64,000 nucleotides of DNA from an uncultured Hyphomicrobiales bacterium. Its GTDB lineage: Bacteria > Bacteroidota > Ignavibacteria > Kapaibacteriales > UBA2268. The DNA lies in contig CAYYIP010000007.1 in assembly GCA_964472015.1 (NCBI GenBank), positions 7,219-71,218 of the forward strand, given 5' to 3'. A program made the translations under genes and the position numbers. The notes under the pieces are model-generated. The model was not told the origin of the DNA, did no database searches, and saw nothing but the letters and a program-made list of their open reading frames with translations. Below are positions 36,501-51,752 of the stretch, piece after piece (position 1 is the first letter of the stretch; each line of letters opens with the position of its first letter).

Positions 36501-36727
36501 ATACTATAAAATGTAATATTTCAACTCAAGAAATAGGAGAGTTAAATGTTGAATTGTGTGGTTTAGCAGGAAATATTATAGATAAAAAAGTATGGATGAG
36601 AAAGGAAGATAATTTTGAAAGTAAGGAAATTATCTTTAATATAGAAAATTATGTTAATGGTATATATTTTATAATTTTAAGAACAAATAATAATTATTTT
36701 TCAGAAAAATTTATTATATTTAAGTAA
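33584..36727 (+). CDS. Large (1047 aa) secreted protein of unknown function with a T9SS C-terminal sorting domain
   Basis: Signal peptide. Repeated Cys-containing about 90-aa modules (..WTPQ..LDNPYILNPVCRP.., ..WEPELYLDDFNAKTPICKP..). C-terminus ..NGIYFIILRTNNNYFSEKFIIFK. Confidence 0.7.
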   Translation: MIMLINMQTMKKNIYILLILNLFIIFIVDNCFAQKETYNWYFGNNAGISFLTDDLEPVFLSGSKMEQMEGVSTISDKNGNLLFYSDGVYVWNRQHSYISYGGGLKGNYSSSRSVIIIPRPRSNRYYYVFTIDAFERSLGISSDTNGLRYSVIDVLGDKYGAIIPDKYNIKLLDGAVEKMITINHANKIDVWLVTYNRKNNSFYTYLINRNGINTPKITKLNELDSISLLDAVFNLEYDFEHKKLINCSRASYSFEVYDFDNLTGEIDVANSLKIPSFIPHPNSGEDSTQFFIPYSAAISADGTKLYASCYRKSILQYDISSKNIEEICKTRCVIADSLNGDGSFGSIRKGPNGKIYITCDTSEYLSVINFPNKLGKECNFVKKAIFLEGGCCRLGLPIMMNYDVPPCDFSGYAGDDKIVCTGEELKIGDVADTTNLKFEWTPQMFLDNPYILNPVCRPLETITYVLKITDTELDCFDFDTVTITVIEAPKILNAEDVHTCKNNSIMIGNSNNSDEYIYQWEPELYLDDFNAKTPICKPETEMTYILTVTNEFGCKSYDTVRVFLKPLSDINITGDSYICEGDSTTLRLKGDFISCEWNTGETTNSIVVKKTGVYSAEVVDRNGCTGDIYFEVKYFVSDSIKIIAPKTICENTYTNIYVEDVFESYLWSTGETTSSIDVNKSGKYWVIGVNENGCKSYDTVDILSYELNYTLYDEAINLYSCLYNSTSQEFYIQNEGEEAITVSSIKLLINDTKNNIDIVTTNTLPENIEDRFYFNINLVGLEVGNYYDTVLVEVSYPCQMLIKIPINIIINEEYLSVSSKDIIIRPGQNIIIPIYTLYHNVNSYLPDTAIFLYDFFYDNELLKIKSVKNANIIFDDYNSGILHLSKNTLQIKQGDTIFIEAFTSLGTSEEFNLKDVFSFRVFLKPPVDVDTKYYCIDTCSSIHSINIDGCMVSLEKFKLLNNTVLKINNVIDNTIKCNISTQEIGELNVELCGLAGNIIDKKVWMRKEDNFESKEIIFNIENYVNGIYFIILRTNNNYFSEKFIIFK

Positions 36728-36758: not shown

Positions 36759-37280
36759 ATGAATTTTGAACAAATTTCACCTTTTGAATTAAATAATAAC
36801 TTTTTTAAAGCCTTGAACAATGATTGGGCATTATTATGTTCAGGCAATCCAGTCTCAGAAAAAGAATGTAACATTATGACTATAAGTTGGGGTGGAATAG
36901 GAATATTATGGAATAAACCTATTGCTATTTGTTATGTGCGACCGCAACGTTATACTTTTGAATTTATTGAAAAAACAGGACATTTTTCAATAAACTTTTT
37001 TGAAAGTGAGAAATATAGAAACGAATTAAATTTATGTGGTACAAAATCGGGACGAGATGTAAATAAATTTTTAGAAACTAGTTTCAAGCTAAAGAAATAT
37101 AATGAAGAATATGTGGGGATAGAAGAGGCTAAATTGATATTAAATTGTAAAGTTTTGTATGCTGATTTTCTTAAGGAAACTAATTTTTTAGACAAAGAAG
37201 TAATAAAAAGTTTTTATCCTAAAAAAGATTTCCATAAATTTTTTATTGGTGAAATAAATAATATTCTACAAGCTAAGTAA
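36759..37280 (+). CDS. Flavin reductase-like domain protein
   Basis: NIMTISWGG..ICYVRPQRYTFEFIEKTGHFSINF matches the flavin reductase-like FMN-binding fold. Confidence 0.65.
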   Translation: MNFEQISPFELNNNFFKALNNDWALLCSGNPVSEKECNIMTISWGGIGILWNKPIAICYVRPQRYTFEFIEKTGHFSINFFESEKYRNELNLCGTKSGRDVNKFLETSFKLKKYNEEYVGIEEAKLILNCKVLYADFLKETNFLDKEVIKSFYPKKDFHKFFIGEINNILQAK

Positions 37281-37289
37281 TTATAAAGT

Positions 37290-37952
37290 ATGAAAAATAG
37301 ACAAACAGAATTTACAATAGAATTACAAAATTATGTATATGAAAATTTTAATGCAGAAGATAAATTATTAAAAGATATTGCTAATAATTGTTGGGAAGAA
37401 GCACAGATTCCACAGATAAATATAACGGGATATCAAGCCCAATTTTTGCAATTTATTATAAAAGCTATAGATGCAAAAAATATTTTGGAAATTGGGACGT
37501 TAGCAGGATATTCGGCAATTGTAATGGCACGTGCTGCTTCAGAAGACGCTAAAGTTTTAACTATTGAAAAAGAGAAAAAATATGCTGATTATGCAAGAAA
37601 TAATATTATAAAAGCAGGACTGGAGAATAAAATAAAGATTATTGTTGAAAACGCACATAGTTTTATAAAAAAATTTGCACCTAATGAACTTTTAGATCTT
37701 ATTTTTCTTGATGCAGATAAATCTGCATATTTTAAATATATAAATGCTTTAACGCCATATCTTAGAAAAGGTGGTATTGTTATTGCTGATAATGCATTTG
37801 CGTTTGGATTTTTATTAGATACTGCACCTGAAAGAAATCCGGAAGAAGTACGTTCTATGATAAACTTTCATAAACATTTACTTGAACGTAAAGATTATTT
37901 TACGACTATAGTACCTATTGGAGATGGTATTTTATTAAGTATTAAAATTTAA
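37290..37952 (+). CDS. Class I SAM-dependent O-methyltransferase (family 3, caffeoyl-CoA OMT-like)
   Basis: ILEIGTLAGYSAI, DLIFLDADK and GGIVIADN motifs. Confidence 0.8.
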   Translation: MKNRQTEFTIELQNYVYENFNAEDKLLKDIANNCWEEAQIPQINITGYQAQFLQFIIKAIDAKNILEIGTLAGYSAIVMARAASEDAKVLTIEKEKKYADYARNNIIKAGLENKIKIIVENAHSFIKKFAPNELLDLIFLDADKSAYFKYINALTPYLRKGGIVIADNAFAFGFLLDTAPERNPEEVRSMINFHKHLLERKDYFTTIVPIGDGILLSIKI

Positions 37953-38815: not shown

Positions 38816-38889
38816 AATATTGTTTATTTAGAAAAAAATTGTATTGTTAATATTATAATAATAAAATTTGTAAAGTATAATAAAAATTA

Positions 38890-40467
38890 ATGTTAAAAAA
38901 ACAAGCAAAAGAAAAAGCAATAGAAGTAGCCTTGTGGGAAACAGCAAATAAATTGCGTGGAAGTGTTGAACCTTCGGAATATAAGCACGTGGTATTGGCG
39001 TTGATTTTTTTGAAGTTTGTGAACGATAAATTTGAGGAGCAACGACAAAAACTAATTAATTGTGGCAAAGAGAAATACATTGAAAACTCGGACTTTTACA
39101 ATAAGGACAAAGTCTTTTTTCTAAAAGAAGAGACCCGTTGGAAATATATTGTTAGTAAAGCTCGCCAAAACGATATTGCGTTGATAATTGATTCCGCTTT
39201 ACACACTATAGAAAAAGACAATAAAGTTCTGAAAGGTGCATTGCCTGATAACTATTTTTCACGTCTTGGACTTGATACCTCTAAATTAGCTGCTCTTATC
39301 AGCGAAATAGATAGCATATATATACTCAAGGACAAAGAGCAAGATGTTATTGGACGTATTTACGAGTATTTTCTGAGTAAGTTTGCCATTGCTGAAGGAA
39401 AAGGGAAAGGTGAGTTTTACACGCCCAAAAGCATTGTAAATTTAATTGCCGAGCTGATAGAGCCTTACAAAGGTTTTATTTATGATCCATGTTGCGGTTC
39501 GGGCGGAATGTTTGTGCAGTCTATCAAGTTTATTGAAGCACACCACGGCAATCAAAAAGAGGTTTCCATTTACGGACAGGAATATACGAACACAACGTAT
39601 AAATTGGCGAAAATGAATCTTGCCATTCGAGGCATTTCTGCTAATTTAGGCGAAAAAGCCGCTAACACTTTTAGCAACGATTTACATAAAGATTTAAAAG
39701 CCGATTTTATTATGGCAAATCCTCCTTTCAACCAAAAAGATTGGCGAGCAGAAAACGAACTTTTAGACGATCCTCGCTGGAAAGGTTACGAAGTACCACC
39801 CAAAAGCAACGCTAATTATGGTTGGATACTTCACATGGCATCTAAGCTTTCGGGAAATGGTGTAGCAGGATTTCTTTTAGCAAACGGAGCATCGAGCGGT
39901 GGCGGTGATGAGTATAAAATACGTAAACAGTTGATTGAAAATGATTTGGTTGAAGCTATCTTGATTTTACCACGAAATATGTTTTACACAACCGATATAA
40001 GCGTAACTCTTTGGATATTGAATAAAAACAAAAAAGAATACGTAAGGGCGTATGGCGATATACCTCAACGAAATTACCGAAATCGACAAAAAGAAATTCT
40101 TTTTATGGATTTGCGGGAAATGGGCGAGCCGTTTGAGAAAAAGTACATACAATTCTCTGAAAAAGATATTAGGAAAATAGCTGATAATTATCATAACTGG
40201 CAATGTACGGGTGAATTGAATTCGCCATATCAAGATATTCCAGAATTCTGCTATTCCGCAGGTATAGAAGAAATTAGAGAGAAAGATTATTCGCTTGTAC
40301 CGAGCAGATACATAGAATTTGTAAATCGTGATGAACAGATTGATTTTGACGAAAAAATGAAAACTTTACAGCAGGAAATTGGTAAATTATTACAAGAAGA
40401 AAAAAAATCGCGAGAAGAATTGTTAGCTGTTTTTAAAAATTTAGGTTATAAAATTGAGTTAAAATGA
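38890..40467 (+). CDS. hsdM: Type I restriction-modification system methyltransferase subunit
   Basis: HsdM N-terminal domain (LWETANKLRG); SAM motif DPCCGSGGMF; catalytic NPPF (IMANPPFNQKDW). G+C is clearly above the genome background. Confidence 0.9.
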   Translation: MLKKQAKEKAIEVALWETANKLRGSVEPSEYKHVVLALIFLKFVNDKFEEQRQKLINCGKEKYIENSDFYNKDKVFFLKEETRWKYIVSKARQNDIALIIDSALHTIEKDNKVLKGALPDNYFSRLGLDTSKLAALISEIDSIYILKDKEQDVIGRIYEYFLSKFAIAEGKGKGEFYTPKSIVNLIAELIEPYKGFIYDPCCGSGGMFVQSIKFIEAHHGNQKEVSIYGQEYTNTTYKLAKMNLAIRGISANLGEKAANTFSNDLHKDLKADFIMANPPFNQKDWRAENELLDDPRWKGYEVPPKSNANYGWILHMASKLSGNGVAGFLLANGASSGGGDEYKIRKQLIENDLVEAILILPRNMFYTTDISVTLWILNKNKKEYVRAYGDIPQRNYRNRQKEILFMDLREMGEPFEKKYIQFSEKDIRKIADNYHNWQCTGELNSPYQDIPEFCYSAGIEEIREKDYSLVPSRYIEFVNRDEQIDFDEKMKTLQQEIGKLLQEEKKSREELLAVFKNLGYKIELK

Positions 40468-42440
40468 ACGAAAAGCAAATAAATCCTTTTGAATTAGATG
40501 ATGAGTATGTTATATACTCACTCATAAACGAAGAATTTTTACCGGAAGAGTACCATGAACTTGAATATAAATCCGGTAAAGATGGATTTCCAAAAGAGAT
40601 TTGGAAAACATATTCAGCCTTTGCCAACACAAATTCTGGTATTATTATCATTGGTATAAAAGAGAAAAGAGGTGTTTTTCTAATTGAGGGATTGACAGAA
40701 GAACAAATTTCAAATTATAAAAAGCATTTTTGGGACAGCTGCAACAATCCGAATACCGTTAGTGTCAATCTTTTGAGTAACGAAGATATAAAAGTAATTG
40801 AGACAAATTCAAAAAAACTGTTAGTTATTCGAGTTCCTTTCGCTCATCGTACCAAAAGACCGGTTTTTCTTACACGAAATCCATTTGGAAACACGTACAA
40901 ACGCAACTACGAAGGCGACTACAGATGTACTGATGACGAAGTAAGAAGAATGTTAGCTGAAGGCGGCACAGAACTTAAAAGAGATAACTTGCTTTTAGAA
41001 AATTTCACGATAGACGATTTAGATCCTGTTAGTATTCGTCAGTTTCGTCAATTGTTTTCATCTACAAGACCGGGGCACCCTTGGCTTGCTTTAGAAGATA
41101 AAGACTTACTAAAGAAACTCGGAGCTTATCGCATTGACCGAAAAACTGGACAAGAAGGAATTACGCTTGCTGGGCTGTTAATGTTTGGCAAAGGAGACAG
41201 CATACGAGAACAAGATGCTTTACCTGATTACTTTCCTGATTTTAGAGAGCGTTTGTCAATAGATGAAAAAGTGCGATGGACAGATCGTATTTATCCCGAC
41301 GGAACTTGGGAAAGTAATTTACTTCAATTTTATTTGAAAGTATTGCCCAAATTATCATCTACATTACCTAAACCATTTCGCTTAGATAAAGATGAACGTG
41401 TTGATGAAACACCTGCTCATATTGCGTTGCGTGAAGCTTTTGTAAATACATTGGTGCATACTGATTATTTGTTAAGTGGTAACATTATCATTGAACTTGA
41501 TACCGAACAATTTGTATTTTCAAATCCCGGTACATTACTCGTTTCTTTGGAACAATATTATGCGGGAGGAGTGAGTGAGTGCCGTAATCCTGCATTACAA
41601 CAAATGTTTATGCTGATTGGTCGTGCTGAAAAAGCTGGTAGTGGAGTGGACAAAATTATGTCAGGCTGGCAAGATTCTCATTGGCGAAAGCCTTTTCTTG
41701 TGTTAGAAAACCGACCTGATAAAGTTAAACTCACTTTACCTATGTTTAGCGTGTTGCCTGAACAAGTACTAAACGAGTTAAATACTATTTATGGCGATGT
41801 GAGTCATTTTAGTTCCGACGAACTAACTGCACTTTCTTTCTGTCTGATAGAGGGTTCAATTTCCAACCACCGCTTGCAATATGTGTTAAATATGCACAGT
41901 TCAGACATTACGAAAATGCTTAAAAAATTGTGTGTGGGTGATTATTTAGAAGCTGAAAATTATGGTCGCTGGACTACTTATAAAATTAAACATAAGGTTG
42001 CAAGCTCAGGCGGAAAGGTTGACACCTCAGGCGAAAAGGTTGCAAGCTCCGATAGAAAGGTTGCAACCTCAGGCGAAAAGGTTGCAAGCTCTGGTGGAAA
42101 CCTTGCAAGCTCTGGTGGAAACCTTGCAAGCTCTGGTGGAAACCTTGCAAGCTCTGGTGGAAACCTTGCAAGCTCAGGCGGAAACCTTGCAAGCTTAACT
42201 GAACTTCCTAAAAGGATAAGTATAGAAAAAATGGAAGATATAATTATGCGAATTTGTAAGGATAATTACGTTAAAAAAGAAGACCTTGCAACATTATTGA
42301 ACCGTTCAGAAAATTATATAAGAAATGAAATTTTACCTAAAATGATAAAAGAGAAAAAAATAGAGAAAAAATATCCGTTTACGCTTAATCATCCTGAACA
42401 AGCTTATAAAACTACAGAGGAATATGCAGAAAAACTATAA
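40464..42440 (+). CDS. COG2865-type Schlafen-like ATP-binding protein / putative transcriptional regulator (AlbA_2 + HATPase_c_4-like + C-terminal HTH), inserted between hsdM and hsdS
   Basis: N-terminal ELEYKSG..IWKTYSAFANTNSGIIIIGIKEKRG matches AlbA_2. TLVHTDYLLSGNIIIELDTEQFVFSNPGTL matches HATPase_c_4. ATGA overlap with hsdM. An internal 7-aa repeat region sits ahead of the C-terminal domain. Confidence 0.75.
   Translation: MNEKQINPFELDDEYVIYSLINEEFLPEEYHELEYKSGKDGFPKEIWKTYSAFANTNSGIIIIGIKEKRGVFLIEGLTEEQISNYKKHFWDSCNNPNTVSVNLLSNEDIKVIETNSKKLLVIRVPFAHRTKRPVFLTRNPFGNTYKRNYEGDYRCTDDEVRRMLAEGGTELKRDNLLLENFTIDDLDPVSIRQFRQLFSSTRPGHPWLALEDKDLLKKLGAYRIDRKTGQEGITLAGLLMFGKGDSIREQDALPDYFPDFRERLSIDEKVRWTDRIYPDGTWESNLLQFYLKVLPKLSSTLPKPFRLDKDERVDETPAHIALREAFVNTLVHTDYLLSGNIIIELDTEQFVFSNPGTLLVSLEQYYAGGVSECRNPALQQMFMLIGRAEKAGSGVDKIMSGWQDSHWRKPFLVLENRPDKVKLTLPMFSVLPEQVLNELNTIYGDVSHFSSDELTALSFCLIEGSISNHRLQYVLNMHSSDITKMLKKLCVGDYLEAENYGRWTTYKIKHKVASSGGKVDTSGEKVASSDRKVATSGEKVASSGGNLASSGGNLASSGGNLASSGGNLASSGGNLASLTELPKRISIEKMEDIIMRICKDNYVKKEDLATLLNRSENYIRNEILPKMIKEKKIEKKYPFTLNHPEQAYKTTEEYAEKL
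41994..42196 (+). repeat. In-frame 21-bp tandem repeat (about 9.7 units), with 4 consecutive perfect copies of aaccttgcaagctctggtgga
   Basis: Units read directly from the sequence (aaggttgcaagctcaggcgga ... aaccttgcaagctctggtgga x4 ...). They encode KVASSGG / NLASSGG heptads. The repeat creates spurious ORFs in other frames and on the opposite strand. Confidence 0.9.
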
Positions 42441-43551
42441 GCGATTAGGCGATTATATACAAGAATTCAATGTCCGTAACACAGATTTAGCTATTACCAA
42501 TCTTTTAGGTGTGAGTATAGAAAAAACTTTTATACCATCCGTAGCAAATCTTAATGGCGTGGATTTATCTGTATATAAAATATTGAAAAAAGACCAGCTA
42601 GCTTGTAATTTAATGATCGTAGAGCGTGATAAAAAACTTCCTGTAGATTTGTATAGAGAAGAAAAACCAGCTATAGTTTCTTCTGCATATTATGTTTTTG
42701 AGCCAAAAAACAAAGAAGAATTATTACCTGAATATTTAATGATGTGGCTTTTTCGACCTGAAAGTGATAGGTATTTTGGTTTTATTAGTGGCGGAGATGT
42801 AAGAGGTGGAATTACTTGGGAGACATTTTGCAGTCTTCCAATTAAAGTCCCAAAAATTGAAAAACAACGAGAAATCGTAAAAGAATACAAAACAGTAGAG
42901 AGACGCATACAGATAAACGAAGAGCTCTGCAAAAAATTAGAAGAAACAGCACAAGCGCTATATAGAAAATATTTTGTAGAAGATATAGACCCAGAAAATT
43001 TACCGGAAGGGTGGAGATGGGGAAAGTTAGAGGAGGTTGCTAAGATTACAATGGGACAATCACCAGTGGGAGAAAGTTATAACACTGATGGAATTGGAGA
43101 AATATTTTATCAAGGTAGAAGCGATTTTGGAATGCGATTTCCCACAATTAGAATGTTTACAAATGAGCCTACCAAAATGGCTAAAAAAGATGATATTTTA
43201 TTAAGTGTTAGAGCACCTGTTGGGGACATAAATATTGCACCACACAATTGCTGTATTGGTAGAGGATTAGCAAGCATAAGAAACAAGAAAAAACAGAAGT
43301 CTTATATGTTTTATCTAACAAAAAATTTAGATACAATTTTTAATATAGCAGACGGAGCTGGAACAATCTTTGGAAGTATTAATAGAGATACACTTTTGAA
43401 TATTGACGTAATAATTCCTAATGAAGAAGTTATTCAATTATTTGAAAAAAAAGTTTCAACAATTGATAAGCTGTATGAATATAATGATATAGAAACGCAA
43501 AAGCTAAAAGAATTACTATCTTTGTTGTTGGCAAAGATGGGGAGAGAATAA
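42424..43551 (+). CDS. hsdS: Type I restriction-modification system specificity subunit
   Basis: Two target-recognition domains separated by, and ending in, the conserved HsdS helical regions (..EELCKKLEETAQALYRKYF.. and ..QKLKELLSLLLAKM). Overlaps the upstream gene by 17 nt. Confidence 0.8.
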   Translation: MQKNYKRLGDYIQEFNVRNTDLAITNLLGVSIEKTFIPSVANLNGVDLSVYKILKKDQLACNLMIVERDKKLPVDLYREEKPAIVSSAYYVFEPKNKEELLPEYLMMWLFRPESDRYFGFISGGDVRGGITWETFCSLPIKVPKIEKQREIVKEYKTVERRIQINEELCKKLEETAQALYRKYFVEDIDPENLPEGWRWGKLEEVAKITMGQSPVGESYNTDGIGEIFYQGRSDFGMRFPTIRMFTNEPTKMAKKDDILLSVRAPVGDINIAPHNCCIGRGLASIRNKKKQKSYMFYLTKNLDTIFNIADGAGTIFGSINRDTLLNIDVIIPNEEVIQLFEKKVSTIDKLYEYNDIETQKLKELLSLLLAKMGRE

Positions 43552-43557
43552 GAAGAT

Positions 43558-44076
43558 ATGAATTTTATTTTAAGATTTTTTTTTACAATTAGCGCTGTAT
43601 CTTTTTTTGTTGTTGTTTATTTAGTACAAAATAAGATAAATCCATTTGATGAGGTTCTTGGAAAATATGCGTGGTTAATTTATATAGTGTACGTACTTTT
43701 TCCATTTATACTGACTTGTATATCACTGCGAATTTGTAAATTATTAGCCAGAAACTCGATTAAAAAAATACAATCAATAGAACCATCGAATAATGATTTC
43801 CTTGCCACCTATCTTGCGTTCTTTTTTGTTGCATTAAGTATTAAAGGAACAATTACTTTTTGGATAGTATTTGGAATGACGGTTCTTTTTACTTTTGTTT
43901 CAAGAGTATCATACTTTAATCCGGTTCTTTTAGTATTTGGTTACAATTTTTATTATATAGTTACAGGGGAGAATGTAAAGATTATGTTAATTAGCAAACA
44001 AAAATTAAAAGCTCCGAATAATTTTGATCATAAAGATGTAGGACGCATCAATGATTATACATTTATAGATATTTAA
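43558..44076 (+). CDS. Hypothetical integral membrane protein (4-5 TM, 172 aa) inside the type I R-M locus
   Basis: Hydrophobic helices FFTISAVSFFVVVYLV, WLIYIVYVLFPFILTCISL, YLAFFFVALSI, FWIVFGMTVLFTFV and PVLLVFGYNFYYIV. No recognisable motif. Starts 7 nt after the hsdS stop. Confidence 0.6.
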   Translation: MNFILRFFFTISAVSFFVVVYLVQNKINPFDEVLGKYAWLIYIVYVLFPFILTCISLRICKLLARNSIKKIQSIEPSNNDFLATYLAFFFVALSIKGTITFWIVFGMTVLFTFVSRVSYFNPVLLVFGYNFYYIVTGENVKIMLISKQKLKAPNNFDHKDVGRINDYTFIDI

Positions 44077-44079
44077 AAT

Positions 44080-44889
44080 ATGGCAGAATTAATAGTAAAA
44101 TACAAATCTGAATACAAAAATGTATTGAAACAAGAAGACAATATTATTGAAAATATTGATCTAACTAATGTAGAACAAATAGATTTTACAACAAGCTATA
44201 AGCTTGAAGATAATGAATGGTTTAAAATTACTGATTTTAGCAATCAAGACTATGTTGTTGAAATATGTAATGAAAATTTCAGTACTGCAAGTCTCGTGCA
44301 AATAGTTAACAAGGAGTATGAAGATATTAAAGAAATAGTTATTTTGCAGAACGAGCAGATGCATTTCCAAAGGGTTACTCCTTCTTATTATGTAAATAAG
44401 AAAACTTTTTTAGACTATTCAGGAAGTCCCAAAGTAGTAGAACACAGAAAACAGATCGAGATAAAAAAAGAATCTGATGCTGTATATTTGTTAGAAACTG
44501 ACACATTGTTATTTAAAGATATATCTAAAATAAAACCTATTTTTAAAGGAATAGAGATGTTGCATCGAGAAGCAACACAAGAGGAAGTTAACACATTTAT
44601 GGAATATGATTTCATTTCAACGTTAAATTTTGACTCTAAACGTGTAGGTGTTCAAAATCGAAAAAGAATAGCTGATATTGGGGTAAAATATGCTAATCTT
44701 TCAAGCGAGAAACAAAAAGGACTAATAACTTATGCAAAAGAGAAATCAGGAATTGATATAGAGGATGGCAAATTTCTAATTAGAAATGATAACGATTTGA
44801 AAAACTTGCTTTACGCAATGGATCAACGTTATTATTATGCTGATATATATGAAGAAAATAGAATTGCTAACTCCATTCGTATTGTGTAA
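44080..44889 (+). CDS. Hypothetical soluble protein (269 aa), translationally coupled to the membrane protein
   Basis: Starts 4 nt after the upstream stop. No catalytic motif that I can recognise. Charged, Lys/Glu-rich. Confidence 0.55.
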   Translation: MAELIVKYKSEYKNVLKQEDNIIENIDLTNVEQIDFTTSYKLEDNEWFKITDFSNQDYVVEICNENFSTASLVQIVNKEYEDIKEIVILQNEQMHFQRVTPSYYVNKKTFLDYSGSPKVVEHRKQIEIKKESDAVYLLETDTLLFKDISKIKPIFKGIEMLHREATQEEVNTFMEYDFISTLNFDSKRVGVQNRKRIADIGVKYANLSSEKQKGLITYAKEKSGIDIEDGKFLIRNDNDLKNLLYAMDQRYYYADIYEENRIANSIRIV

Positions 44890-44960
44890 CGGGTTATTTA
44901 GCAAGTTCATATTATAAAGTAAAATACGGATTTATGAATTATTTTTAAATTAATATTTAA

Positions 44961-45926
44961 ATGATCAATTTTCATGCACATAATCGCAAAAGTATTCGTC
45001 TAAAAGGATACGATTATTCGCAAGAAGGATTGTATTTTATAACGATTTGTTGTCAAGATAAAATTTGTAGGTTTGGACATATTGAAAACGACGAAATGAT
45101 ATGTAACCAATATGGAATTGTGGCATATAATGAATGGATAAAAACGTCACAAATACGTTCCAATATTACGTTGCACGAATTTGTTGTAATGCCCAATCAT
45201 ATCCACGGTATTATTGAAATAAATCGCGATGCGGAATTATATTCCCAAAACCGTGGTTGCGAATTGCGTTCGCCAAATTGTAGTGGCGAATTGTATTCGC
45301 CCGTTCCAAAGGGCGTATTCGATACGCCCCAACAGCCCGATTTCGATACGTCCGTTCGTGGTTGCGAATTTTATTCGCCAAATTGTAGTGGCGAATTGTA
45401 TTCGCCCATTCCAAAGGGGGTATTCAATACGCCCCAACAGCCCGATTTTGATTTGTCCGTTCGTGGTTGCGAATTGCGTTCGCAAAATTGTGGTTGCGAA
45501 TTGCATTCGCCAAATTGTAGTGGCGAATTGTATTCGCCCATTCCAAAGGGGGTATCCGATACGCCCCAACAGCCCGATTTCGATACGTCCGTTCGTGGTT
45601 GCGAATTGCGTTCGCAAAATTGTAGTGGCGAATTGTATTCGCCCGTTCCAAAGGGGGTATTCGATACGCCCCAACAGATTGATTTCGATACGTCCCGATT
45701 GCGATCACCGTCGCAAACGGTTGGTGCCATCGTTCGCGGATACAAATCGGCGGTTACAAAACAATTGAATGCGTTGGGAATGACCGAAAAATTATGGCAA
45801 CGCAATTATTACGAACATATTATACGCAATGAACAATCATATATACATATTTCTGAATATATTCGCAACAATCCCATACAATGGATAAACGATAGATTTT
45901 ATGATTATGAAATTTACAGAAAATGA
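44961..45926 (+). mobile_element. IS200-like REP-associated tyrosine transposase (RAYT) whose ORF carries an in-frame insertion of a REP array
   Basis: N-terminal part with HuH motif VVMPNHIHGII. C-terminal part with the RAYT Tyr motif LWQRNYYEHIIRNEQSY. Together these make about 165 aa, the normal RAYT size. They are separated by about 150 aa encoded by palindromic repeats. Confidence 0.7.
45252..45700. repeat. Four tandem about 105-bp units (unit 3 carries a 27-bp internal duplication), each holding three REP-like hairpins (gcgaa-ttgcg-ttcgc; ggcgaa-ttgta-ttcgcc; gggcgtat-tcg-atacgccc)
   Basis: Direct reading: cgtggttgcgaattgcgttcgccaaattgtagtggcgaattgtattcgcccgttccaaagggcgtattcgatacgccccaacagcccgatttcgatacgtccgtt repeated 4 times with point differences. 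Open in several frames on both strands. Confidence 0.9.
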
Positions 45927-48900
45927 ATTAGAAAAGGCATTTATCAAATTATTAGAGCAAGAGGGCTATACGCATAGTGCAGGTGCTTCGGTATCACGTT
46001 CCTCAATGAACGAGGTGCTGATAAAAGAAGATTTGCGTAGGTTTTTGCATTCGCACTATAAGGCAGATGAGCTGACGGGAAACGAGGTAAATTTCATTAT
46101 CCAGCAACTTAACTCGCTTCCTGCCAGCGATTTATATGAAAGTAATAAACGGTTTATGCAGATGCTTTCAGACGGTTTTATTCTGAAAAGAGATGACCAC
46201 AAGCAGAAAGATCTTTACATTGAGCTTATCAACTATAGATTTTTGAAAAAAAATCTACATCTTAAAACAGAAAAATATACTTCTATAGTTGCGGAAAATA
46301 ATGACGACAATAACATCTACAGATTTGTAACTCAATTGGAAATCGTAGGGAATGAAAAACGTATTCCCGATGGAATTGTTTATGTAAACGGTTTACCATT
46401 AGTGGTTTTTGAATTTAAGACTCCCGTTAAAGAAGAGGTTACTATTTATGATGCTTACAAGCAACTTACGGTGCGTTATCGTCGCGATATTCCCGAACTT
46501 TTCAAGTACAACGCTTTTTGTGTTATCAGTGACGGCGTAAACAGCAAAGCAGGTTCATTGTTTGCCTCTTACGAGTTTTATTACGCATGGAGAAGAATAG
46601 CAAGTTTAGCAAAAGATGTTGACGGAATTGATAGTATGTTTACCCTAATTAAAGGAGTTTTCGACAAAAACCGTTTTCGAGACATACTTCGTAATTTTAT
46701 CTTTTTCCCCGATACAGAAAAAAATGAAAGTAAAATCGTTTGTCGTTATCCTCAATATTACGCTGCCCGTGCTTTGTTCGAAAATATCAAGCAAGCTCAA
46801 AAACCTCACGGCAACGGAAAAGGCGGAACCTATTTCGGAGCAACTGGCAGTGGCAAGAGCTTCACGATGCTTTACCTTACACGTTTGCTGATGAAAAGCG
46901 AACATTTTGCTAGTCCAACTATCGTACTTATTACAGATCGTACCGATTTAGACGATCAGCTCTCTGCACAATTTGTAAATGCCAAGAGATTTATAAGTGA
47001 TGATACAGTGCAAAGCGTTGAAAATCGTGCTGATTTACGCGAGAAGCTACAAGGCAGACAGAGCGGAGGTGTTTTTCTTACTACTATACAGAAATTTACT
47101 GAAGATACGGAATTGCTTACCGAACGCAATAATGTGATTTGTATTTCAGATGAAGCACATCGCACACAAACAAATCTCGATCAAAAAATCCGTATTACCG
47201 AACAAGGAGTTACTAAATCATTTGGCTTTGCTAAATATCTGCACGATTCTTTGCCTAATGCTACTTACGTTGGTTTTACTGGAACACCTATAGATGCTAC
47301 ATTAGATGTTTTCGGTCCGGTGGTAGATTCCTACACAATGACCGAATCAGTTAAAGATGAAATTACTGTGCGTATCGTTTACGAAGGCAGAGCTGCTAAA
47401 GTAGCTTTAGATAACAGTAAATTAGAGGAGATTGAACGTTACTACGAAGCAGCTGCGGAAGCTGGAGCTAACGAATATCAAATTGAGCAAAGCAAAAAAG
47501 AGACTGCTAAAATGAATGCTATTCTTGGCGACCCGAAACGTTTACAAAGTGTTGCCGAAGATTTTGTAGAACATTACGAAAAACGTGTTTCGGAAAAAGC
47601 AACGCTGAAAGGTAAAGCTATGTTTGTTTGTAGCAACAGAGAAATAGCTTATGATCTGTTTAAGCGTATTATTACACTTCGTCCCGAATGGAATGAAATA
47701 CGTGCAGCAGAAGAAGGAGCAGAACTTTCCGATAAGGATAAAAGGGAATTAAAACCTATAGAGCGAATAAAAATGGTAATGACACGGTCAAAAGACGACG
47801 AAAAAGAACTTTGGGATTTGTTAGGGACAAAGGAATATAGAAAAGAGCTTGACAGACAATTCAAAAATGAAAAATCTAACTTTAAAATAGCTATCGTGGT
47901 TGATATGTGGCTCACAGGATTCGACGTGCCTTTTTTGGATACAATTTATATAGACAAACCAATACAACAACATAATCTAATACAAACTATTTCGCGAGTA
48001 AATCGTCGAGTGGAAGGAAAAGATAAAGGGCTTGTGGTTGATTATATCGGCATAAAGAACAAGATGAATTTGGCACTTGCTCAATACGATAAAATTGAAG
48101 GTGATAACTTTGAAGATATTTCTCAATCACTTGTGATAATGCGAGAGCATTTGGATTCGTTGAAACATTTGATGCATACGTTCGACGATACAAAGTATTT
48201 TAAAGGTTCAAATTTAGAACAACTAAATACACTTAATTTGGCTGCTGAATTTGTACAACAAACCAAAGAAACTGAAAGCCGATTTATGGGACTAACAAAA
48301 CGTTTGAAAGCTGCTTATGATATTTGTGTGGGAAGCGAACAAATAACACAGAAAGATCGAGATTATGTACATTTTTATATAGCTATTCGTTCCATTGTTT
48401 TTAAACTGACTAAAGGCGATATTCCCGATGTGGTACAAATGAATAACCGAGTACGTCAGATGATTGAAGAAGCTTTACAAAGTGACGGTGTTGAGGAAAT
48501 ATTAAAAATTGGCGATGAAACTAAAAGTGAACAAGATTTGTTTGATGAAAAGTATTTGGCAAAAATCAATAAGATAAAGCTACCTAATACGAAAATTAAA
48601 CTCTTGCAGAAGCTCTTAGCAAAAGCTATCGGGCAACTGCGAAAAATTAATCGCATAAAAGGAATTGACTTTAGCCATCGAATGCAAAAGTTAGTGGATC
48701 AATACAACGACCGTTCAGTAAACGATATTTTGCGAAGCGAGGTATATGAAGAGATGGCTGAAAAACTTACCGCTATGATTTGGGATGTACACGAAGAATT
48801 TTATGCCGGCGAAAAGTTGGGAATTGATTTTGAAGAAAAAGCCTTTTACGATATTCTAAAAGAATTGTGTGTGAAATACGATTTTAAATATCCCGACGAC

Positions 48901-49110
48901 AAAATGATAAAGTTGGCTAAAAAAGTCAAAGAGCTAGTTGATTTTATAGCCAGTTATCCCGATTGGAATAAGCAAGAGAATATAAAATCAGAGTTGAAAG
49001 CTGGATTAATTGTGTTGCTTGATGAATACAATTATCCGCCTGTTGAACGAGATGAAGTTTATGTAGAAATTTTTGAACAAGCGGAGAATTTTAAGAAAAA
49101 TAGAGAATAA
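45901..49110 (+). CDS. hsdR: Type I restriction-modification system endonuclease subunit
   Basis: HsdR N-terminal domain (MKFTENELEKAFIKLLEQEGY); SF2 helicase motifs including Walker A GATGSGKS and DEAH (ICISDEAHRTQ); 1069 aa. Overlaps the RAYT 3' end by 26 nt. Confidence 0.9.
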   Translation: MIMKFTENELEKAFIKLLEQEGYTHSAGASVSRSSMNEVLIKEDLRRFLHSHYKADELTGNEVNFIIQQLNSLPASDLYESNKRFMQMLSDGFILKRDDHKQKDLYIELINYRFLKKNLHLKTEKYTSIVAENNDDNNIYRFVTQLEIVGNEKRIPDGIVYVNGLPLVVFEFKTPVKEEVTIYDAYKQLTVRYRRDIPELFKYNAFCVISDGVNSKAGSLFASYEFYYAWRRIASLAKDVDGIDSMFTLIKGVFDKNRFRDILRNFIFFPDTEKNESKIVCRYPQYYAARALFENIKQAQKPHGNGKGGTYFGATGSGKSFTMLYLTRLLMKSEHFASPTIVLITDRTDLDDQLSAQFVNAKRFISDDTVQSVENRADLREKLQGRQSGGVFLTTIQKFTEDTELLTERNNVICISDEAHRTQTNLDQKIRITEQGVTKSFGFAKYLHDSLPNATYVGFTGTPIDATLDVFGPVVDSYTMTESVKDEITVRIVYEGRAAKVALDNSKLEEIERYYEAAAEAGANEYQIEQSKKETAKMNAILGDPKRLQSVAEDFVEHYEKRVSEKATLKGKAMFVCSNREIAYDLFKRIITLRPEWNEIRAAEEGAELSDKDKRELKPIERIKMVMTRSKDDEKELWDLLGTKEYRKELDRQFKNEKSNFKIAIVVDMWLTGFDVPFLDTIYIDKPIQQHNLIQTISRVNRRVEGKDKGLVVDYIGIKNKMNLALAQYDKIEGDNFEDISQSLVIMREHLDSLKHLMHTFDDTKYFKGSNLEQLNTLNLAAEFVQQTKETESRFMGLTKRLKAAYDICVGSEQITQKDRDYVHFYIAIRSIVFKLTKGDIPDVVQMNNRVRQMIEEALQSDGVEEILKIGDETKSEQDLFDEKYLAKINKIKLPNTKIKLLQKLLAKAIGQLRKINRIKGIDFSHRMQKLVDQYNDRSVNDILRSEVYEEMAEKLTAMIWDVHEEFYAGEKLGIDFEEKAFYDILKELCVKYDFKYPDDKMIKLAKKVKELVDFIASYPDWNKQENIKSELKAGLIVLLDEYNYPPVERDEVYVEIFEQAENFKKNRE

Positions 49111-49465
49111 GGCTTTTTATATATATTCATCGAACAAGTTTTATATTATCGATTTTTGAAACACTAAAACTCATCGAATTTGCAAAAAAGATTGGGATAA
49201 TAAAAAGAGTAGAAAGAGAAATAACAGAATAAATTAACAATATATATTTTTTATAGTTTTTGACGATTTAATTAAATTACTTTTTAATTTATAAATATTA
49301 AGTCGTCTTTTTTTATATTATATTTGGCTAAGAATTAAGTTATAAAAATACTTCTGATTATATTTATTAATTTTAAAATATATTAAATAATTAAAATAAT
49401 TAAAAATATAGTTTTTTTTTGTATTTTAGTATTTTTATTAAAGGTTAAAATTAGGATAATATAAT

Positions 49466-51089: not shown

Positions 51090-51752
51090 GTGTTTATGAT
51101 TTATAAGCGTGAAATTTTAAATCTTATAGAAAAAGGAGAAAGTAATATTGTAGAATTTAAACGACAAGGAACAACCCCGGAAAAATTATCTAAAGAAATT
51201 TGTGCTTTTTCTAATACCAAAGGTGGATATTTATTTATAGGAGTTGATGACGATAGAAAAATAATAGGTGTAAAAAACGAAAAAGCTGAACTTGATATTA
51301 TTCAACAAGCATGTTATTTTAATATTGTTCCTGTTCCTAAATATGAAGTTTCTATTTTTTCTATAAAAAAAACAATAGATATTATTGTTGTATATATTCC
51401 TCAAAGTTTAAATAAGCCACATAAAATAAAGTTATTTGATACAATAAACAATAAATTTTATTGGCGTGCTTATATTAGGAATAAAGATGAATCGGTTCTT
51501 GCTAGTAGAGAAATGACCAATTTGATGGCTTATATTTCTAAAGATGAACCTATGACGAATATTACTATTGGTAAAACCGAACGAATTCTTTTTGAATATC
51601 TTTCGATAAATAAAAAAATTAATATTCAAGAATTTTCAAAAATTGCAAATATTTCACGAAGACGAGCGGAGCGTATTTTAATTCAATTAGTCAAATTGGG
51701 TTTAATTATGATACATACAGATTTGCAACAAGATTATTTTACTGCTATCTAG
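51090..51752 (+). CDS. AlbA_2 (Schlafen-like) domain protein with a C-terminal HTH; putative transcriptional regulator
   Basis: IVEFKRQGTTPEKLSKEICAFSNTKGGYLFIGVDDDRKIIGV fits AlbA_2. C-terminal NIQEFSKIANISRRRAERILIQLVKLGLI is HTH-like. Confidence 0.6.
   Translation: MFMIYKREILNLIEKGESNIVEFKRQGTTPEKLSKEICAFSNTKGGYLFIGVDDDRKIIGVKNEKAELDIIQQACYFNIVPVPKYEVSIFSIKKTIDIIVVYIPQSLNKPHKIKLFDTINNKFYWRAYIRNKDESVLASREMTNLMAYISKDEPMTNITIGKTERILFEYLSINKKINIQEFSKIANISRRRAERILIQLVKLGLIMIHTDLQQDYFTAI

What the first reader, a model, noticed from the sequence alone, without database searches (positions are those of the whole stretch)
38890..49110. G+C-rich type I R-M island with hsdM and hsdS separated from hsdR by three inserted elements
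The span holding hsdM, the COG2865 gene, hsdS, the two unknown genes, the RAYT and hsdR is conspicuously richer in G+C than the rest of the window. For example the RAYT REP array is full of gcgaattgcgttcgcc stretches, against the 25-30% G+C background, which suggests horizontal acquisition. The layout is M, then a Schlafen-like ATPase, then S, then a TM protein and an unknown, then a RAYT, then R. Adjacent gene pairs overlap by 4, 17 and 26 nt. It is a mosaic defence island inserted between a glycerophosphodiester phosphodiesterase gene and gltX, with no flanking tRNA or integrase.
Basis: partly seen in the sequence, partly recalled or inferred. Interest (0 to 1): 0.65.

Follow-up and report, generated by a model that had tools for sequence, protein, structure and literature searches.

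The report
Transferred restriction island with nested defences

Summary
Window 38890-49110 has 35.0% G+C against 25.7% outside it. All seven genes have raised third-position G+C (0.19-0.37 against 0.135 ± 0.044). The 4, 17 and 26 nt overlaps are real, and no tRNA or integrase flanks the region.

Horizontal acquisition is well supported:
- The closest relative found (goat-omasum MAG, GltX 83% identical) has GDPD directly next to gltX, an empty site.
- The hsdM–SLFN–hsdS–RAYT–hsdR unit recurs at about 90% nucleotide identity in an Ignavibacteria genome between unrelated genes. Homology ends at window 38878 and 49155.

- The "TM protein and unknown" are KwaA and KwaB, a Kiwa defence system.
- The REP hairpins lie inside the RAYT reading frame, in frame. 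This is the published hallmark of TnpA_REP subclass 2.4. No dispersed REPs were found.
- Only one recent insertion is demonstrable. Kiwa, together with the second hsdS recognition domain, is absent from the nearest relatives of the operon. SLFN and RAYT co-diverge with the operon.

This Kiwa clade usually sits between hsdS and hsdR (12 of 15 loci with enough upstream flank). Embedding defence genes in type I R-M operons is a known phenomenon. I rate it a new member of a known kind, of moderate interest.

The parts
38878..49155 (+). Transferred unit. This is the stretch shared at about 90% nucleotide identity with the module in an Ignavibacteria genome (L023), interrupted only by hsdS recognition-domain divergence, the Kiwa block and the REP array.
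   Evidence: blastn of window against L023: 38878-43017, 43488-43551, 44978-45296 and 45602-49155. The flanking genes differ (Acyl_transf_3 and AA_permease there).
38890..40467 (+). hsdM, the N6-adenine methyltransferase subunit
   Evidence: Pfam N6_Mtase 4.7e-103 and HsdM_N 1.2e-21. Motifs DPCCGSG (199) and NPPF (277) are intact. GC3 is 0.316.
40464..42440 (+). Schlafen/AlbA_2 + GHKL-type HATPase_c_4 (+ possible wHTH) protein, 658 aa. It overlaps hsdM by 4 nt and hsdS by 17 nt.
   Evidence: Pfam SLFN_AlbA_2 4.7e-12 and HATPase_c_4 1.3e-09. A weak ArsR-type HTH lies at 460-511. The PADLOC pAgo SLFN region matches at 1.3e-14. The same gene sits between hsdM and hsdS in L020 and L023-L029.
41998..42195 (+). 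In-frame 21-nt (7-aa, KVASSGG/NLASSGG) tandem repeat forming a Ser/Gly-rich linker in the SLFN protein. Copy number varies.
   Evidence: TRF finds period 21 with 9.4 copies. Members of the ≥90% identity cluster are 609, 637, 658 and 679 aa long. L023 and L027 share the same context but differ by 70 aa.
42424..43551 (+). hsdS, the specificity subunit with two target-recognition domains. It is a mosaic. From about 42924 onward it resembles L018 (about 80-93% nt). TRD2 is unrelated to that of L023.
   Evidence: Pfam Methylase_S with 2 stretches. 100-nt identity profiles against L018 and L023 are.
43558..44076 (+). kwaA, the Kiwa membrane component (172 aa, about four hydrophobic segments)
   Evidence: PADLOC KwaA 7.9e-15 over the full length. 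NCBIfam KwaA gives 3.6e-06 but falls below its cut-off.
44080..44889 (+). kwaB, the Kiwa DNA-binding effector (269 aa)
   Evidence: PADLOC KwaB 7.7e-16. The AF2 model has pLDDT 82, and its only significant PDB match is the KwaB crystal structure 9mtn (E 1e-6, prob 1.00). Four of 35 clade members hit Pfam PF16162 KwaB.
43552..44977 (+). Segment present here but absent from the closest relatives of the operon (L008/L009, L010-L015, L023-L028), where hsdS abuts the RAYT gene. It holds kwaA, kwaB, a 71-nt spacer and a replaced RAYT 5' end.
   Evidence: blastn against L008: 664-723 matches 43492-43551 and 744-3603 matches 44978-47813.
44961..45926 (+). RAYT / TnpA_REP subclass 2.4 gene (321 aa). 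It overlaps hsdR by 26 nt.
   Evidence: NCBIfam REP_Tyr_transpos 1.7e-17 in two stretches. Motifs NHIH (79), WQ (279) and YIRNNP (300) are present. PDB 4er8 TnpA_REP matches at 6.7e-4. Subclass signature is from PMC6006769.
45234..45695 (+). In-frame array of REP-like hairpins inside the RAYT ORF, between the HuH and Tyr motifs. It holds nine GT[AG]G-footed GCGAA…TTCGC hairpins and four GGGCGTAT…ATACGCCC hairpins, with periods 105, 27 and 132 nt.
   Evidence: TRF and repeat finder. The ssDNA fold has z = -5.3. The motifs are absent from the rest of the window. Array composition differs in L008 while the flanks are about 95% identical.
45901..49110 (+). hsdR, the restriction/translocase subunit (1069 aa)
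   Evidence: Pfam HSDR_N, SWI2_SNF2, ResIII, T1R_D3-like and T1RH-like_C. TIGR00348 hsdR scores 458 bits, above its cut-off. Motifs D157…E170-x-K172, GSGKS (316) and DEAH (417) are present.
38816..38877 (+). Left junction: AT-rich spacer after the GDPD stop codon. It contains AAAATTTG (38863-38870), where related loci carry TAnnTTTG (a Bacteroidota-type -7 box) upstream of hsdM.
   Evidence: Sequence comparison of the hsdM upstream regions. That this is a promoter is inference.
49156..49355 (.). Right junction: about 200 bp of AT-rich DNA of unassigned origin. It lies between the end of the shared module and the point where similarity to the empty-site spacer of L001 resumes.

Best explanation
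The region is a horizontally acquired, single-strand, tightly packed defence operon inserted into the GDPD-gltX spacer of a low-G+C gut bacterium related to Kapaibacteria/Ignavibacteria (Bacteroidota).

Its backbone is a complete type I restriction-modification system. HsdM2-HsdS methylates adenines in a bipartite target. With HsdR added, unmethylated incoming DNA is translocated and cut.

Three passengers are nested in the backbone:
1. Between hsdM and hsdS lies a Schlafen(AlbA_2)-GHKL ATPase-wHTH protein. It is most likely a latent RNA-cleaving backup effector of the kind found embedded in BREX and R-M loci.
2. Between hsdS and the RAYT gene lies a Kiwa system. KwaA is the membrane sensor and KwaB is the DNA-binding effector that blocks phage replication and late transcription.
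3. Overlapping hsdR lies a domesticated REP-associated tyrosine transposase of subclass 2.4, carrying its REP hairpins in frame inside its own gene.

History. The five-gene unit hsdM-SLFN-hsdS-RAYT-hsdR moves as one block, with ends at 38878 and 49155. The hsdS central region, TRD2 and kwaAB block was swapped in by recombination with a Kiwa-bearing relative of the same R-M family.

What is shown: gene identities, intact catalytic motifs, compositional deviation, the empty site, the same unit in another genome context, and the recurrent position of Kiwa.

What is inferred: enzymatic activity, the role of the Schlafen protein, any cooperation between the layers, and the insertion mechanism. No integrase, target duplication or terminal repeats were found.
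For: - **Composition.** (35.0% against 25.7% G+C; GC3 0.19-0.37 against 0.135).
- **Empty site.** L001 carries the homologues of window ORFs 33584-36727, 36759-37280, 37290-37952 and GDPD, followed directly by gltX with a 113-bp spacer.
- **Same unit elsewhere.** L023-L028 have hsdM-SLFN-hsdS-RAYT-hsdR with 4, 17 and 20 nt overlaps between Acyl_transf_3 and AA_permease. Identity to the window is about 90% nt, with sharp ends at 38878 and 49155.
- **Near-identical hsdR without Kiwa.** L008/L009 have HsdR 99.4% identical, with hsdS directly followed by the RAYT gene.
- **Kiwa identity.** PADLOC KwaA 7.9e-15 and KwaB 7.7e-16. The KwaB model's only significant PDB hit is the KwaB crystal structure 9mtn.
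- **Kiwa position.** L018, L020, L021 and L022 all show hsdS-kwaA-kwaB(-hsdR). In a metagenome scan, 19 of 31 loci have hsd genes beside kwaAB. Of 15 loci with at least 1.5 kb upstream, 12 have hsdM or hsdS upstream. Of 12 with at least 1.5 kb downstream, 9 have hsdR downstream.
- **Mosaic hsdS.**
- **R-M motifs intact.**
- **RAYT subclass.**
- **Schlafen architecture and embedding.**
- **Embedding in type I R-M is known.**
- **Independent assembly.** Contigs from SRR8925753 reproduce the GDPD-hsdM and kwaB-RAYT junctions.
Against: - The empty site rests on one relative that is not very close (GltX 83%, flanking proteins 54-78% identical). A deletion in that lineage is therefore not formally excluded.
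- No insertion signature was found: no target duplication, terminal repeats or recombinase.
- About 200 bp at the right junction (49156-49355) is unexplained.
- KwaA falls below NCBIfam's curated cut-off (26.9 against 100 bits). KwaB itself does not hit Pfam PF16162. Its structural match has a modest TM-score (0.44).
- No activity, methylation motif or expression data exist.
- The Kiwa genes are lower in G+C than the R-M genes in every locus examined. The G+C dip alone therefore does not date their arrival.
- The Schlafen catalytic residues were not verified.
Confidence: 0.8

Rival explanations
1. The locus is ancestral at this position and was deleted in the lineage of the one syntenic relative. 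The higher G+C would reflect functional constraints on R-M proteins rather than foreign origin.
For: Only one relative (L001) shares the upstream synteny. GC1 of the island genes is within the upper background range.
Against: The deviation is strongest at third codon positions. The same unit occurs at about 90% nt identity between unrelated genes in another genome, with sharp homology ends. GltX reaches at most 83% protein identity among the seven relatives found. Other relatives have no hsd genes within 10 kb of gltX.
Confidence: 0.07
2. The island is an assembly or binning artefact: a foreign contig segment joined into a low-G+C MAG contig.
For: The source is a metagenome-assembled contig. 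The repeat arrays in the SLFN and RAYT genes broke another assembly at exactly these places (L016 ends in SLFN; L017 is a 1.2-kb fragment).
Against: An independent Logan assembly of SRR8925753 gives a 29.6-kb contig that runs from host genes through GDPD into hsdM and SLFN with identical proteins. Strand, GC skew and gene packing are continuous across both junctions. The reads may, however, be the same ones used for the MAG, and the hsdR-gltX junction was not independently recovered.
Confidence: 0.04
3. The RAYT gene is the active mobility engine. The whole unit would be a Y1-transposase-driven single-strand transposon, and the intragenic hairpins its recognition sites.
For: The RAYT gene is the only mobility-type gene in the unit and travels with it. 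The hairpins carry the GT[AG]G foot typical of sites cut by TnpA_REP (PMC6006769).
Against: No hairpins or GT[AG]G-footed palindromes occur at the unit's ends. The RAYT is frameshifted in L010-L015. Its nearest relatives outside this sublineage sit in housekeeping contexts. RAYTs are described as domesticated and single-copy (PMC5581495). Kiwa-bearing relatives of the operon (L018, L021) lack the RAYT yet occur in different contexts.
Confidence: 0.05
4. The embedded genes are unrelated hitch-hikers that merely exploit a permissive, co-transcribed slot. There would be no functional link between Kiwa, Schlafen and the R-M enzyme.
For: The S-R slot holds varying cargo in related loci, with extra genes between kwaB and hsdR in L030, L038, L043, L047 and L056. 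The SLFN and RAYT genes are present or absent independently. Kiwa works alone in E. coli (PMC11785009).
Against: Kiwa of this clade keeps the same position across R-M backbones diverged to 67% HsdR identity, and KwaB divergence tracks backbone divergence. Tight overlaps suggest translational coupling. A precedent for functional coupling exists for PrrC, named in the Payne et al. preprint as almost exclusively embedded in type I R-M. Its latency mechanism is my own recollection.
Confidence: 0.35

Closest known systems
Type I R-M operons with embedded defence genes: V. cholerae VPI-2 T1RM with TgvAB (PMC11411939), EcoprrI with PrrC, C. jejuni rlo genes, and 'guilt-by-embedding' (bioRxiv 10.1101/2024.01.29.577857)
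   Same: Accessory defence genes are nested between hsd genes of one co-directional cluster. The cargo in the slot before hsdR varies among related loci.
   Different: Here three different passengers sit at two slots: M|S, and S|R twice. The cargo is Kiwa, a Schlafen-GHKL protein and a RAYT, not a GmrSD-like enzyme or an anticodon nuclease. None has been tested.
Kiwa (KwaA/KwaB) of E. coli ECOR49 / O55:H7 (PMC11785009; PDB 9mtn)
   Same: A two-gene kwaA-kwaB operon. KwaA is a small protein with about four hydrophobic segments. The KwaB fold matches the solved KwaB. PADLOC family HMMs match over the full length.
   Different: KwaB is shorter (269 against about 307-315 aa) and only about 14% identical to 9mtn in the structural alignment. 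It falls outside the Pfam and NCBIfam thresholds. This clade is mostly embedded between hsdS and hsdR, whereas the published survey reports prophage, plasmid and island contexts.
TnpA_REP subclass 2.4 / RAYT group 4 (Quentin et al. 2018, PMC6006769; Bertels et al. 2017, PMC5581495)
   Same: NH[IFV]H, WQ and YIxNNP motifs. A variable insert of REP sequences lies between the HuH and Tyr motifs and keeps the reading frame. The taxonomic range includes Bacteroidota and Chlorobi.
   Different: No flanking or dispersed REPs were seen in 64 kb. The gene is captured inside an R-M operon and overlaps hsdR by 26 nt. The insert is unusually long (about 155 aa, 13 hairpins).
Schlafen RNase + minimal histidine-kinase/GHKL + wHTH proteins embedded in BREX and related loci (PMC12839542); prokaryotic Schlafens and SLFN-pAgo (bioRxiv 10.1101/2025.07.24.666596, 10.64898/2026.05.29.728809)
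   Same: The domain order is AlbA_2/Schlafen, HATPase_c_4 (GHKL), then a probable wHTH. The gene is embedded inside a methylation-based defence operon.
   Different: The host system is type I R-M rather than BREX. There is an extra variable Ser/Gly heptad linker and a C-terminal domain of about 80 aa. Nuclease residues and activity are untested.
EcoR124I (type IC) R-M enzyme, PDB 2w00 / 7bst
   Same: It is the best solved-structure relative of HsdR (E 5e-28). EcoR124II HsdM is also among the solved relatives of HsdM (E 3e-46), though the best HsdM match is 3khk (E 4e-106).
   Different: Similarity is distant and covers only HsdR residues 129-501. Family (IA-IE) assignment is not established.

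Membership tests
Type I restriction-modification system | HsdM: N6-adenine methyltransferase with HsdM_N domain and motifs I and IV | tested here: met
   N6_Mtase 4.7e-103 and HsdM_N 1.2e-21. DPCCGSG and NPPF are present. It scores below the TIGR00497 equivalog cut-off (172 against 243 bits).
Type I restriction-modification system | HsdS with two target-recognition domains separated by conserved regions | tested here: met
   Methylase_S with 2 stretches. PADLOC Specificity_I 1.1e-64. Conserved central and 3' regions are shared with relatives while the TRDs differ.
Type I restriction-modification system | HsdR: PD-(D/E)xK nuclease + SF2 translocase + C-terminal domain | tested here: met
   HSDR_N, SWI2_SNF2, ResIII, T1R_D3-like and T1RH-like_C. 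TIGR00348 scores 458 bits against a cut-off of 285. D…ExK, GSGKS and DEAH motifs are present.
Type I restriction-modification system | Bipartite m6A methylation and ATP-dependent restriction of unmodified DNA | not testable with these tools
   Needs methylome data or cloning.
Type IC subfamily (EcoR124I-like) | Close sequence relationship or subunit complementation with EcoR124I | tested here: inconclusive
   EcoR124I is the best PDB relative of HsdR, but only at E 5e-28 over residues 129-501. HsdM matches EcoR124II at 3e-46.
Kiwa defence system | KwaA: small integral membrane protein with four TM helices | tested here: met
   PADLOC KwaA 7.9e-15 (1-172 against 2-170/173). Hydrophobic segments lie at about 1-25, 36-64, 81-100 and 100-127. 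NCBIfam NF041622 scores only 26.9 bits against a cut-off of 100. The AF2 model is too poor to use.
Kiwa defence system | KwaB with DUF4868/KwaB domain | tested here: met
   PADLOC KwaB 7.7e-16. Foldseek against PDB gives the KwaB crystal structure 9mtn as the only hit with E ≤ 0.001 (E 1e-6, TM 0.44). Pfam PF16162 is not hit by this protein and is hit by 4 of 35 clade members.
Kiwa defence system | kwaA immediately followed by kwaB in one operon | tested here: met
   There is a 3-nt gap, 44076 to 44080. The same pairing occurs in all related loci.
Kiwa defence system | Protection against phage or conjugation; KwaB DNA binding | not testable with these tools
   Experimental.
RAYT / TnpA_REP subclass 2.4 | HuH motif NH[IFV]H, WQ, and Tyr motif YIxNNP | tested here: met
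   NHIH at 79, WQ at 279 and YIRNNP at 300. The signature is from PMC6006769. NF047646 gives 1.7e-17 but 63.7 bits, below its cut-off of 80 because the match is split by the insert.
RAYT / TnpA_REP subclass 2.4 | REP sequences inserted in frame between the HuH and Tyr motifs | tested here: met
   The array at 45234-45695 has periods 105, 27 and 132 nt, all multiples of 3, and the ORF stays open. The same holds for homologues of 177-332 aa.
RAYT / TnpA_REP subclass 2.4 | Cognate REPs flanking the gene and dispersed in the genome | tested here: not met
   Both hairpin motifs occur only inside the ORF in the 64-kb window, apart from one 2-mismatch look-alike inside hsdM. In all 63 loci fetched the stem motif occurs only inside RAYT ORFs. 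The whole genome was not available.
Prokaryotic Schlafen defence effector | Schlafen/AlbA_2 nuclease domain | tested here: met
   PF04326 4.7e-12, residues 29-155. ELEYK and AFAN motifs are visible. Catalytic residues were not mapped.
Prokaryotic Schlafen defence effector | Fused GHKL/minimal-kinase ATPase and wHTH (the architecture reported in BREX loci) | tested here: inconclusive
   HATPase_c_4 1.3e-09. The HTH is supported only weakly (ArsR-type E 0.032).
Classical integrase-type genomic island | tRNA/tmRNA target, integrase, flanking direct repeats | tested here: not met
   No tRNA lies within 8 kb. No integrase domain was found from 29.9 to 56.9 kb. Only low-complexity AT-rich repeats occur at the borders.

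The most novel reading that the evidence does not exclude
A distinct short-KwaB clade of Kiwa has become a dedicated resident of the hsdS-hsdR slot of one type I R-M family and works with it rather than beside it. For example, KwaB could hold entering DNA at the membrane for the R-M complex, or cover for it when anti-restriction or Gam-like proteins act. It is exchanged together with the second recognition domain of hsdS, so a change of restriction specificity and transfer of Kiwa would be one recombination event. The Schlafen-GHKL protein between hsdM and hsdS would then be a PrrC-like suicide layer guarded by the same complex.
Probability: 0.15. Interest if true: 0.65.

Novelty: new member of a known kind. 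Interest (0 to 1): 0.4.

Why it matters
The locus is a clean natural example of how layered immunity is built. A mobile type I R-M operon serves as a scaffold into which other defence modules are slotted and exchanged.

Three points are useful to specialists:
- The unit's ends can be mapped to within a few bases by comparing two genome contexts, yet no known insertion machinery is present.
- A Kiwa clade is found mostly inside R-M operons. I did not find this described in the Kiwa literature I could search, and it suggests a testable functional link.
- The hsdS recognition domain and Kiwa appear to move as one block.

None of this overturns current views. Embedding of defence genes in R-M, BREX and Hma loci is already described.

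Tried and rejected
- **PDB sequence searches for Kiwa.** Direct and profile searches with KwaA and KwaB found nothing meaningful. Only the structure-based search found KwaB.
- **KwaA structure.** The single-sequence model had pLDDT 56 and was not used.
- **Insertion scars.** Alignment of the empty-site spacer with both junctions gave no crisp breakpoints or target duplication, because the DNA is AT-rich. The repeat finder returned only low-complexity border matches.
- **Promoter and terminator scan.** Counts were no better than shuffled sequence, and the scan does not model Bacteroidota promoters.
- **Is the G+C dip at Kiwa a separate, later acquisition?** Rejected as evidence, because Kiwa genes are lower in G+C than the hsd genes in every related locus.
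- **Is the RAYT array a REP/BIME cluster next to the gene?** Rejected: it is intragenic and in frame.
- **Are RAYT relatives generally R-M-embedded?** No. P0007 and P0009 sit in housekeeping contexts.
- **Core-gene divergence against module divergence between the window and L023.** Not possible, as no shared flanking genes were found.
- **Plasmid search with KwaB.** It gave only distant hits at 31-35% identity and was not followed up.

Full report
**1. Observation**

The window is AT-rich, at 25.7% G+C outside the finding. The span 38890-49110 is 35.0% G+C. Per-kilobase values are 0.33-0.41 at 39-43 kb and 45-49 kb, dip to 0.27-0.30 at 43.5-45.1 kb, and peak at 0.50 at 45.3-45.75 kb.

The signal is strongest at third codon positions. 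Thirty-three other ORFs average GC3 0.135 (sd 0.044), while the seven island genes have 0.19-0.37 (Mann-Whitney p = 1.6e-4).

The 4, 17 and 26 nt overlaps follow from the coordinates. The nearest tRNA genes are 19 kb upstream and 8 kb downstream. No recombinase domain occurs among the ORFs scanned between 29.9 and 56.9 kb (and the L016 annotation).

**2. Host and empty site**

I scanned one genome per species with GltX. This found seven relatives, all MAGs labelled Kapaibacterium, Ignavibacteria or Bacteroidetes, from gut, termite or digester samples.

The closest is L001, a goat-omasum MAG with GltX 83% identical. It carries homologues of window ORFs 33584-36727, 36759-37280, 37290-37952 and GDPD in the same order (54-78% protein identity). 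These are followed directly by gltX after a 113-bp spacer.

None of the seven loci has hsd genes near gltX. The caveat is that only this one, not very close, relative shares the upstream synteny.

**3. The same unit in another genome**

Proteins at least 90% identical to the island's Schlafen-like protein occur in an Ignavibacteria bacterium (NLJ15257.1; contigs up to 2.56 Mb). There the order is hsdM-SLFN-hsdS-RAYT-hsdR, with overlaps of 4, 17 and 20 nt. The unit lies between an acyltransferase gene and an amino-acid permease gene (L023-L028).

Nucleotide identity to the window is about 90% over 38878-43017, 43488-43551, 44978-45296 and 45602-49155. Homology starts 12 nt before the hsdM start codon and ends 45 nt after the hsdR stop codon. 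Beyond those points the flanks are unrelated.

A discrete unit of about 8.6 kb is therefore present in two unrelated chromosomal contexts. Together with GC3 and the empty site, this makes horizontal acquisition the clear best reading. I found no target duplication, terminal inverted repeats or hairpins at the ends. The insertion mechanism is unknown. About 200 bp (49156-49355) between the unit's end and the resumption of similarity to L001 is unassigned.

**4. The two 'unknown' genes are Kiwa**

- The 172-aa protein matches PADLOC KwaA models end to end (7.9e-15). It has about four hydrophobic segments.
- The 269-aa protein matches PADLOC KwaB models (7.7e-16).
- An AlphaFold model built on 35 homologues (pLDDT 82) has a single significant PDB match, the KwaB crystal structure 9mtn (E 1e-6, probability 1.00, TM 0.44).

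The match is to a divergent clade. KwaA is below NCBIfam's cut-off. KwaB itself misses Pfam PF16162, which 4 of 35 clade members hit.

By homology with the characterised system (PMC11785009), KwaA would be the membrane sensor. KwaB would be the DNA-binding effector that stalls phage replication and late transcription.

**5. Kiwa is the differential piece, and it travels with hsdS TRD2**

Contigs with HsdR 99.4% identical to the window's (L008, L009) have hsdS followed within 4 nt by the RAYT gene. So do the approximately 90% identical loci L010-L015 and L023-L028. Relative to them the window has an extra 43552-44977: kwaA, kwaB, a 71-nt spacer and a replaced RAYT 5' end (MINFHAH… instead of MTIQH…).

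L018 lies next to relaxase and primase genes. It has hsdM-hsdS-kwaA-kwaB-(46 aa)-hsdR without the SLFN or RAYT genes, and matches the window at about 80% nt from the start of hsdS to the end of kwaB. A 100-nt identity profile shows two things:
- The window resembles L018 at 80-93% from about 42924 (the hsdS central conserved region) through TRD2 and Kiwa.
- TRD2 is unrelated to that of L023 (about 40%).

The simplest history is recombination within the conserved parts of hsdS. This is the established way type I specificities are shuffled. Here it brought in TRD2 together with kwaAB.

The G+C dip over Kiwa is not evidence of separate origin. Kiwa genes are lower in G+C than the hsd genes in L018, L020 and L021 as well.

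**6. This Kiwa clade is usually R-M-embedded**

All three close KwaB homologues whose contigs I examined lie between hsdS and hsdR, or at a contig end after hsdS. A metagenome scan with the KwaB alignment returned 31 loci at 49-66% identity:
- 19 have hsd genes beside kwaAB.
- Of 15 with at least 1.5 kb of upstream flank, 12 have hsdM or hsdS upstream on the same strand.
- Of 12 with at least 1.5 kb of downstream flank, 9 have hsdR downstream.
- Other genes often lie between kwaB and hsdR.

KwaB divergence tracks backbone divergence. KwaB is 78% identical where HsdR is 83% identical (L018), and 63% where HsdR is 67% (L021).

The Kiwa paper analysed association with mobile elements, and I found no mention of R-M embedding there. 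The 'guilt-by-embedding' preprint establishes that type I R-M systems often hold embedded defence genes, but its text does not name Kiwa. TgvAB in V. cholerae and PrrC are precedents.

**7. The Schlafen-like gene**

It has AlbA_2/Schlafen (4.7e-12) and HATPase_c_4 (1.3e-09) domains and a weak ArsR-type HTH. Its N-terminal region matches the Schlafen part of a PADLOC pAgo model.

This Schlafen + minimal kinase + wHTH architecture has been reported as a widespread embedded 'backup' RNase in BREX-type loci (PMC12839542). Prokaryotic Schlafens have been shown to defend by tRNA cleavage (bioRxiv 10.1101/2025.07.24.666596 and 10.64898/2026.05.29.728809).

In this R-M family the gene sits between hsdM and hsdS with overlapping stop and start codons. 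It co-diverges with them: 93% identity against 91% for HsdM in L023. It is absent from L018 and L021.

Its role here, a latent abortive-infection effector possibly guarded by the R-M complex as PrrC is, is inference. That PrrC comparison is from my own knowledge.

A 21-nt in-frame repeat (41998-42195) encodes a Ser/Gly heptad linker whose copy number varies. Proteins in the ≥90% identity cluster are 609, 637, 658 and 679 aa long, and differ by 70 aa within the same genomic context.

**8. The RAYT**

The protein has NHIH, WQ and YIRNNP motifs. It matches NCBIfam REP_Tyr_transpos in two pieces and E. coli TnpA_REP 4er8. These motifs are the published signature of TnpA_REP subclass 2.4, equivalent to RAYT group 4.

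The 'remarkable and unique feature' of that subclass is REP sequences inserted within the gene, between the HuH and Tyr motifs, without breaking the frame (PMC6006769). That is exactly what is here:
- The array spans 45234-45695.
- It holds nine GT[AG]G-footed GCGAA…TTCGC hairpins and four GGGCGTAT…ATACGCCC hairpins.
- Its periods of 105, 27 and 132 nt are all multiples of three.
- As single-stranded DNA it folds better than shuffles (z = -5.3).

Homologues range from 177 to 332 aa, with GE..SP and GV.DTP peptide repeats that are translated palindromes. The array differs in unit number and order between the window and L008, although the flanks are about 95% identical.

The hairpins occur nowhere else in the window, or outside RAYT ORFs in any fetched locus. 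The dispersed-REP criterion is therefore not met in the sequence available.

The RAYT is frameshifted in L010-L015. Its next-nearest relatives are in housekeeping contexts. It therefore looks like a lineage-specific captured passenger, not the engine of the island.

**9. The R-M core**

HsdM has motifs I and IV. HsdR has the D…ExK nuclease motif, Walker A and DEAH. HsdS has two recognition domains. None has internal stop codons.

The best solved relative of HsdR is EcoR124I, but only distantly (E 5e-28), so I do not assign a subfamily. All seven genes are co-directional, with gaps of at most 71 nt. Related loci carry a TAnnTTTG box upstream of hsdM, where the window has AAAATTTG. A single transcription unit is likely, but that is inferred.

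**10. Verdict**

Its anatomy needed correcting on three points: Kiwa was missed, the REPs are intragenic, and there is one recent exchange rather than three insertions.

Every component belongs to a described family, and embedding of defence genes in type I R-M operons is an established concept. I therefore class the locus as a new member of a known kind. The habitual R-M embedding of a Kiwa clade, and the joint movement of TRD2 and Kiwa, are modestly novel and testable side results.

Noticed in passing
window 47-1165 and 1621-2037: The window opens inside the C-terminal part of an MmeI-like type IIG/IIL restriction-methylase (MmeI_TRD 5.9e-78, MmeI_C), with GC3 0.228. A KilA-N domain gene follows, with GC3 0.331. 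This is a second compositionally foreign, defence-related patch.
   Followed up: partly
window 51090-51752 (+, GTG start): A stand-alone Schlafen/AlbA_2 protein (220 aa, 5e-25) lies just downstream of gltX and outside the island. Its GC3 is host-like (0.136). It has no detectable similarity to the island's Schlafen protein, and no counterpart downstream of gltX in the relatives L003-L007.
   Followed up: partly
window 40207-40227 (inside hsdM): The near-palindrome ACGGGTGAATTGAATTCGCCA resembles REP hairpin B of the RAYT array. It has 2 mismatches to GGCGAATTGTATTCGCC and is 86% complementary to 45284-45304. It could be chance or a relic REP inside hsdM.
   Followed up: no
window 41998-42195: An in-frame 21-nt tandem repeat (7-aa Ser/Gly units) in the Schlafen gene behaves as a variable-number repeat. 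Near-identical proteins are 609, 637, 658 and 679 aa long, including two lengths in the same genomic context (L023 against L027).
   Followed up: partly
window 49156-49355: About 200 bp of AT-rich non-coding DNA belongs neither to the transferred unit (ends at 49155) nor to the spacer seen at the empty site (similarity resumes at about 49356). It includes a weak 47-nt inverted repeat with 49393-49439.
   Followed up: no
L018 1-4445: The Kiwa-bearing relative of the operon lies immediately downstream of DUF5906, primase (Toprim), NikA-like and relaxase genes. It is therefore probably on a mobilisable element.
   Followed up: no
L030, L038, L043, L047, L056 (between kwaB and hsdR): Related loci carry 1.5-4.5 kb of additional genes between kwaB and hsdR, some with weak similarity to the HATPase_c_4 region of the Schlafen protein. 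The S-R slot therefore holds several cassettes.
   Followed up: no
L021 / L022: There the hsdM-hsdS-(69 aa)-kwaA-kwaB-hsdR operon sits between two large CobN/Mg-chelatase-like genes, in a host of higher G+C than the operon. This is the reverse of the compositional contrast seen in the window.
   Followed up: no
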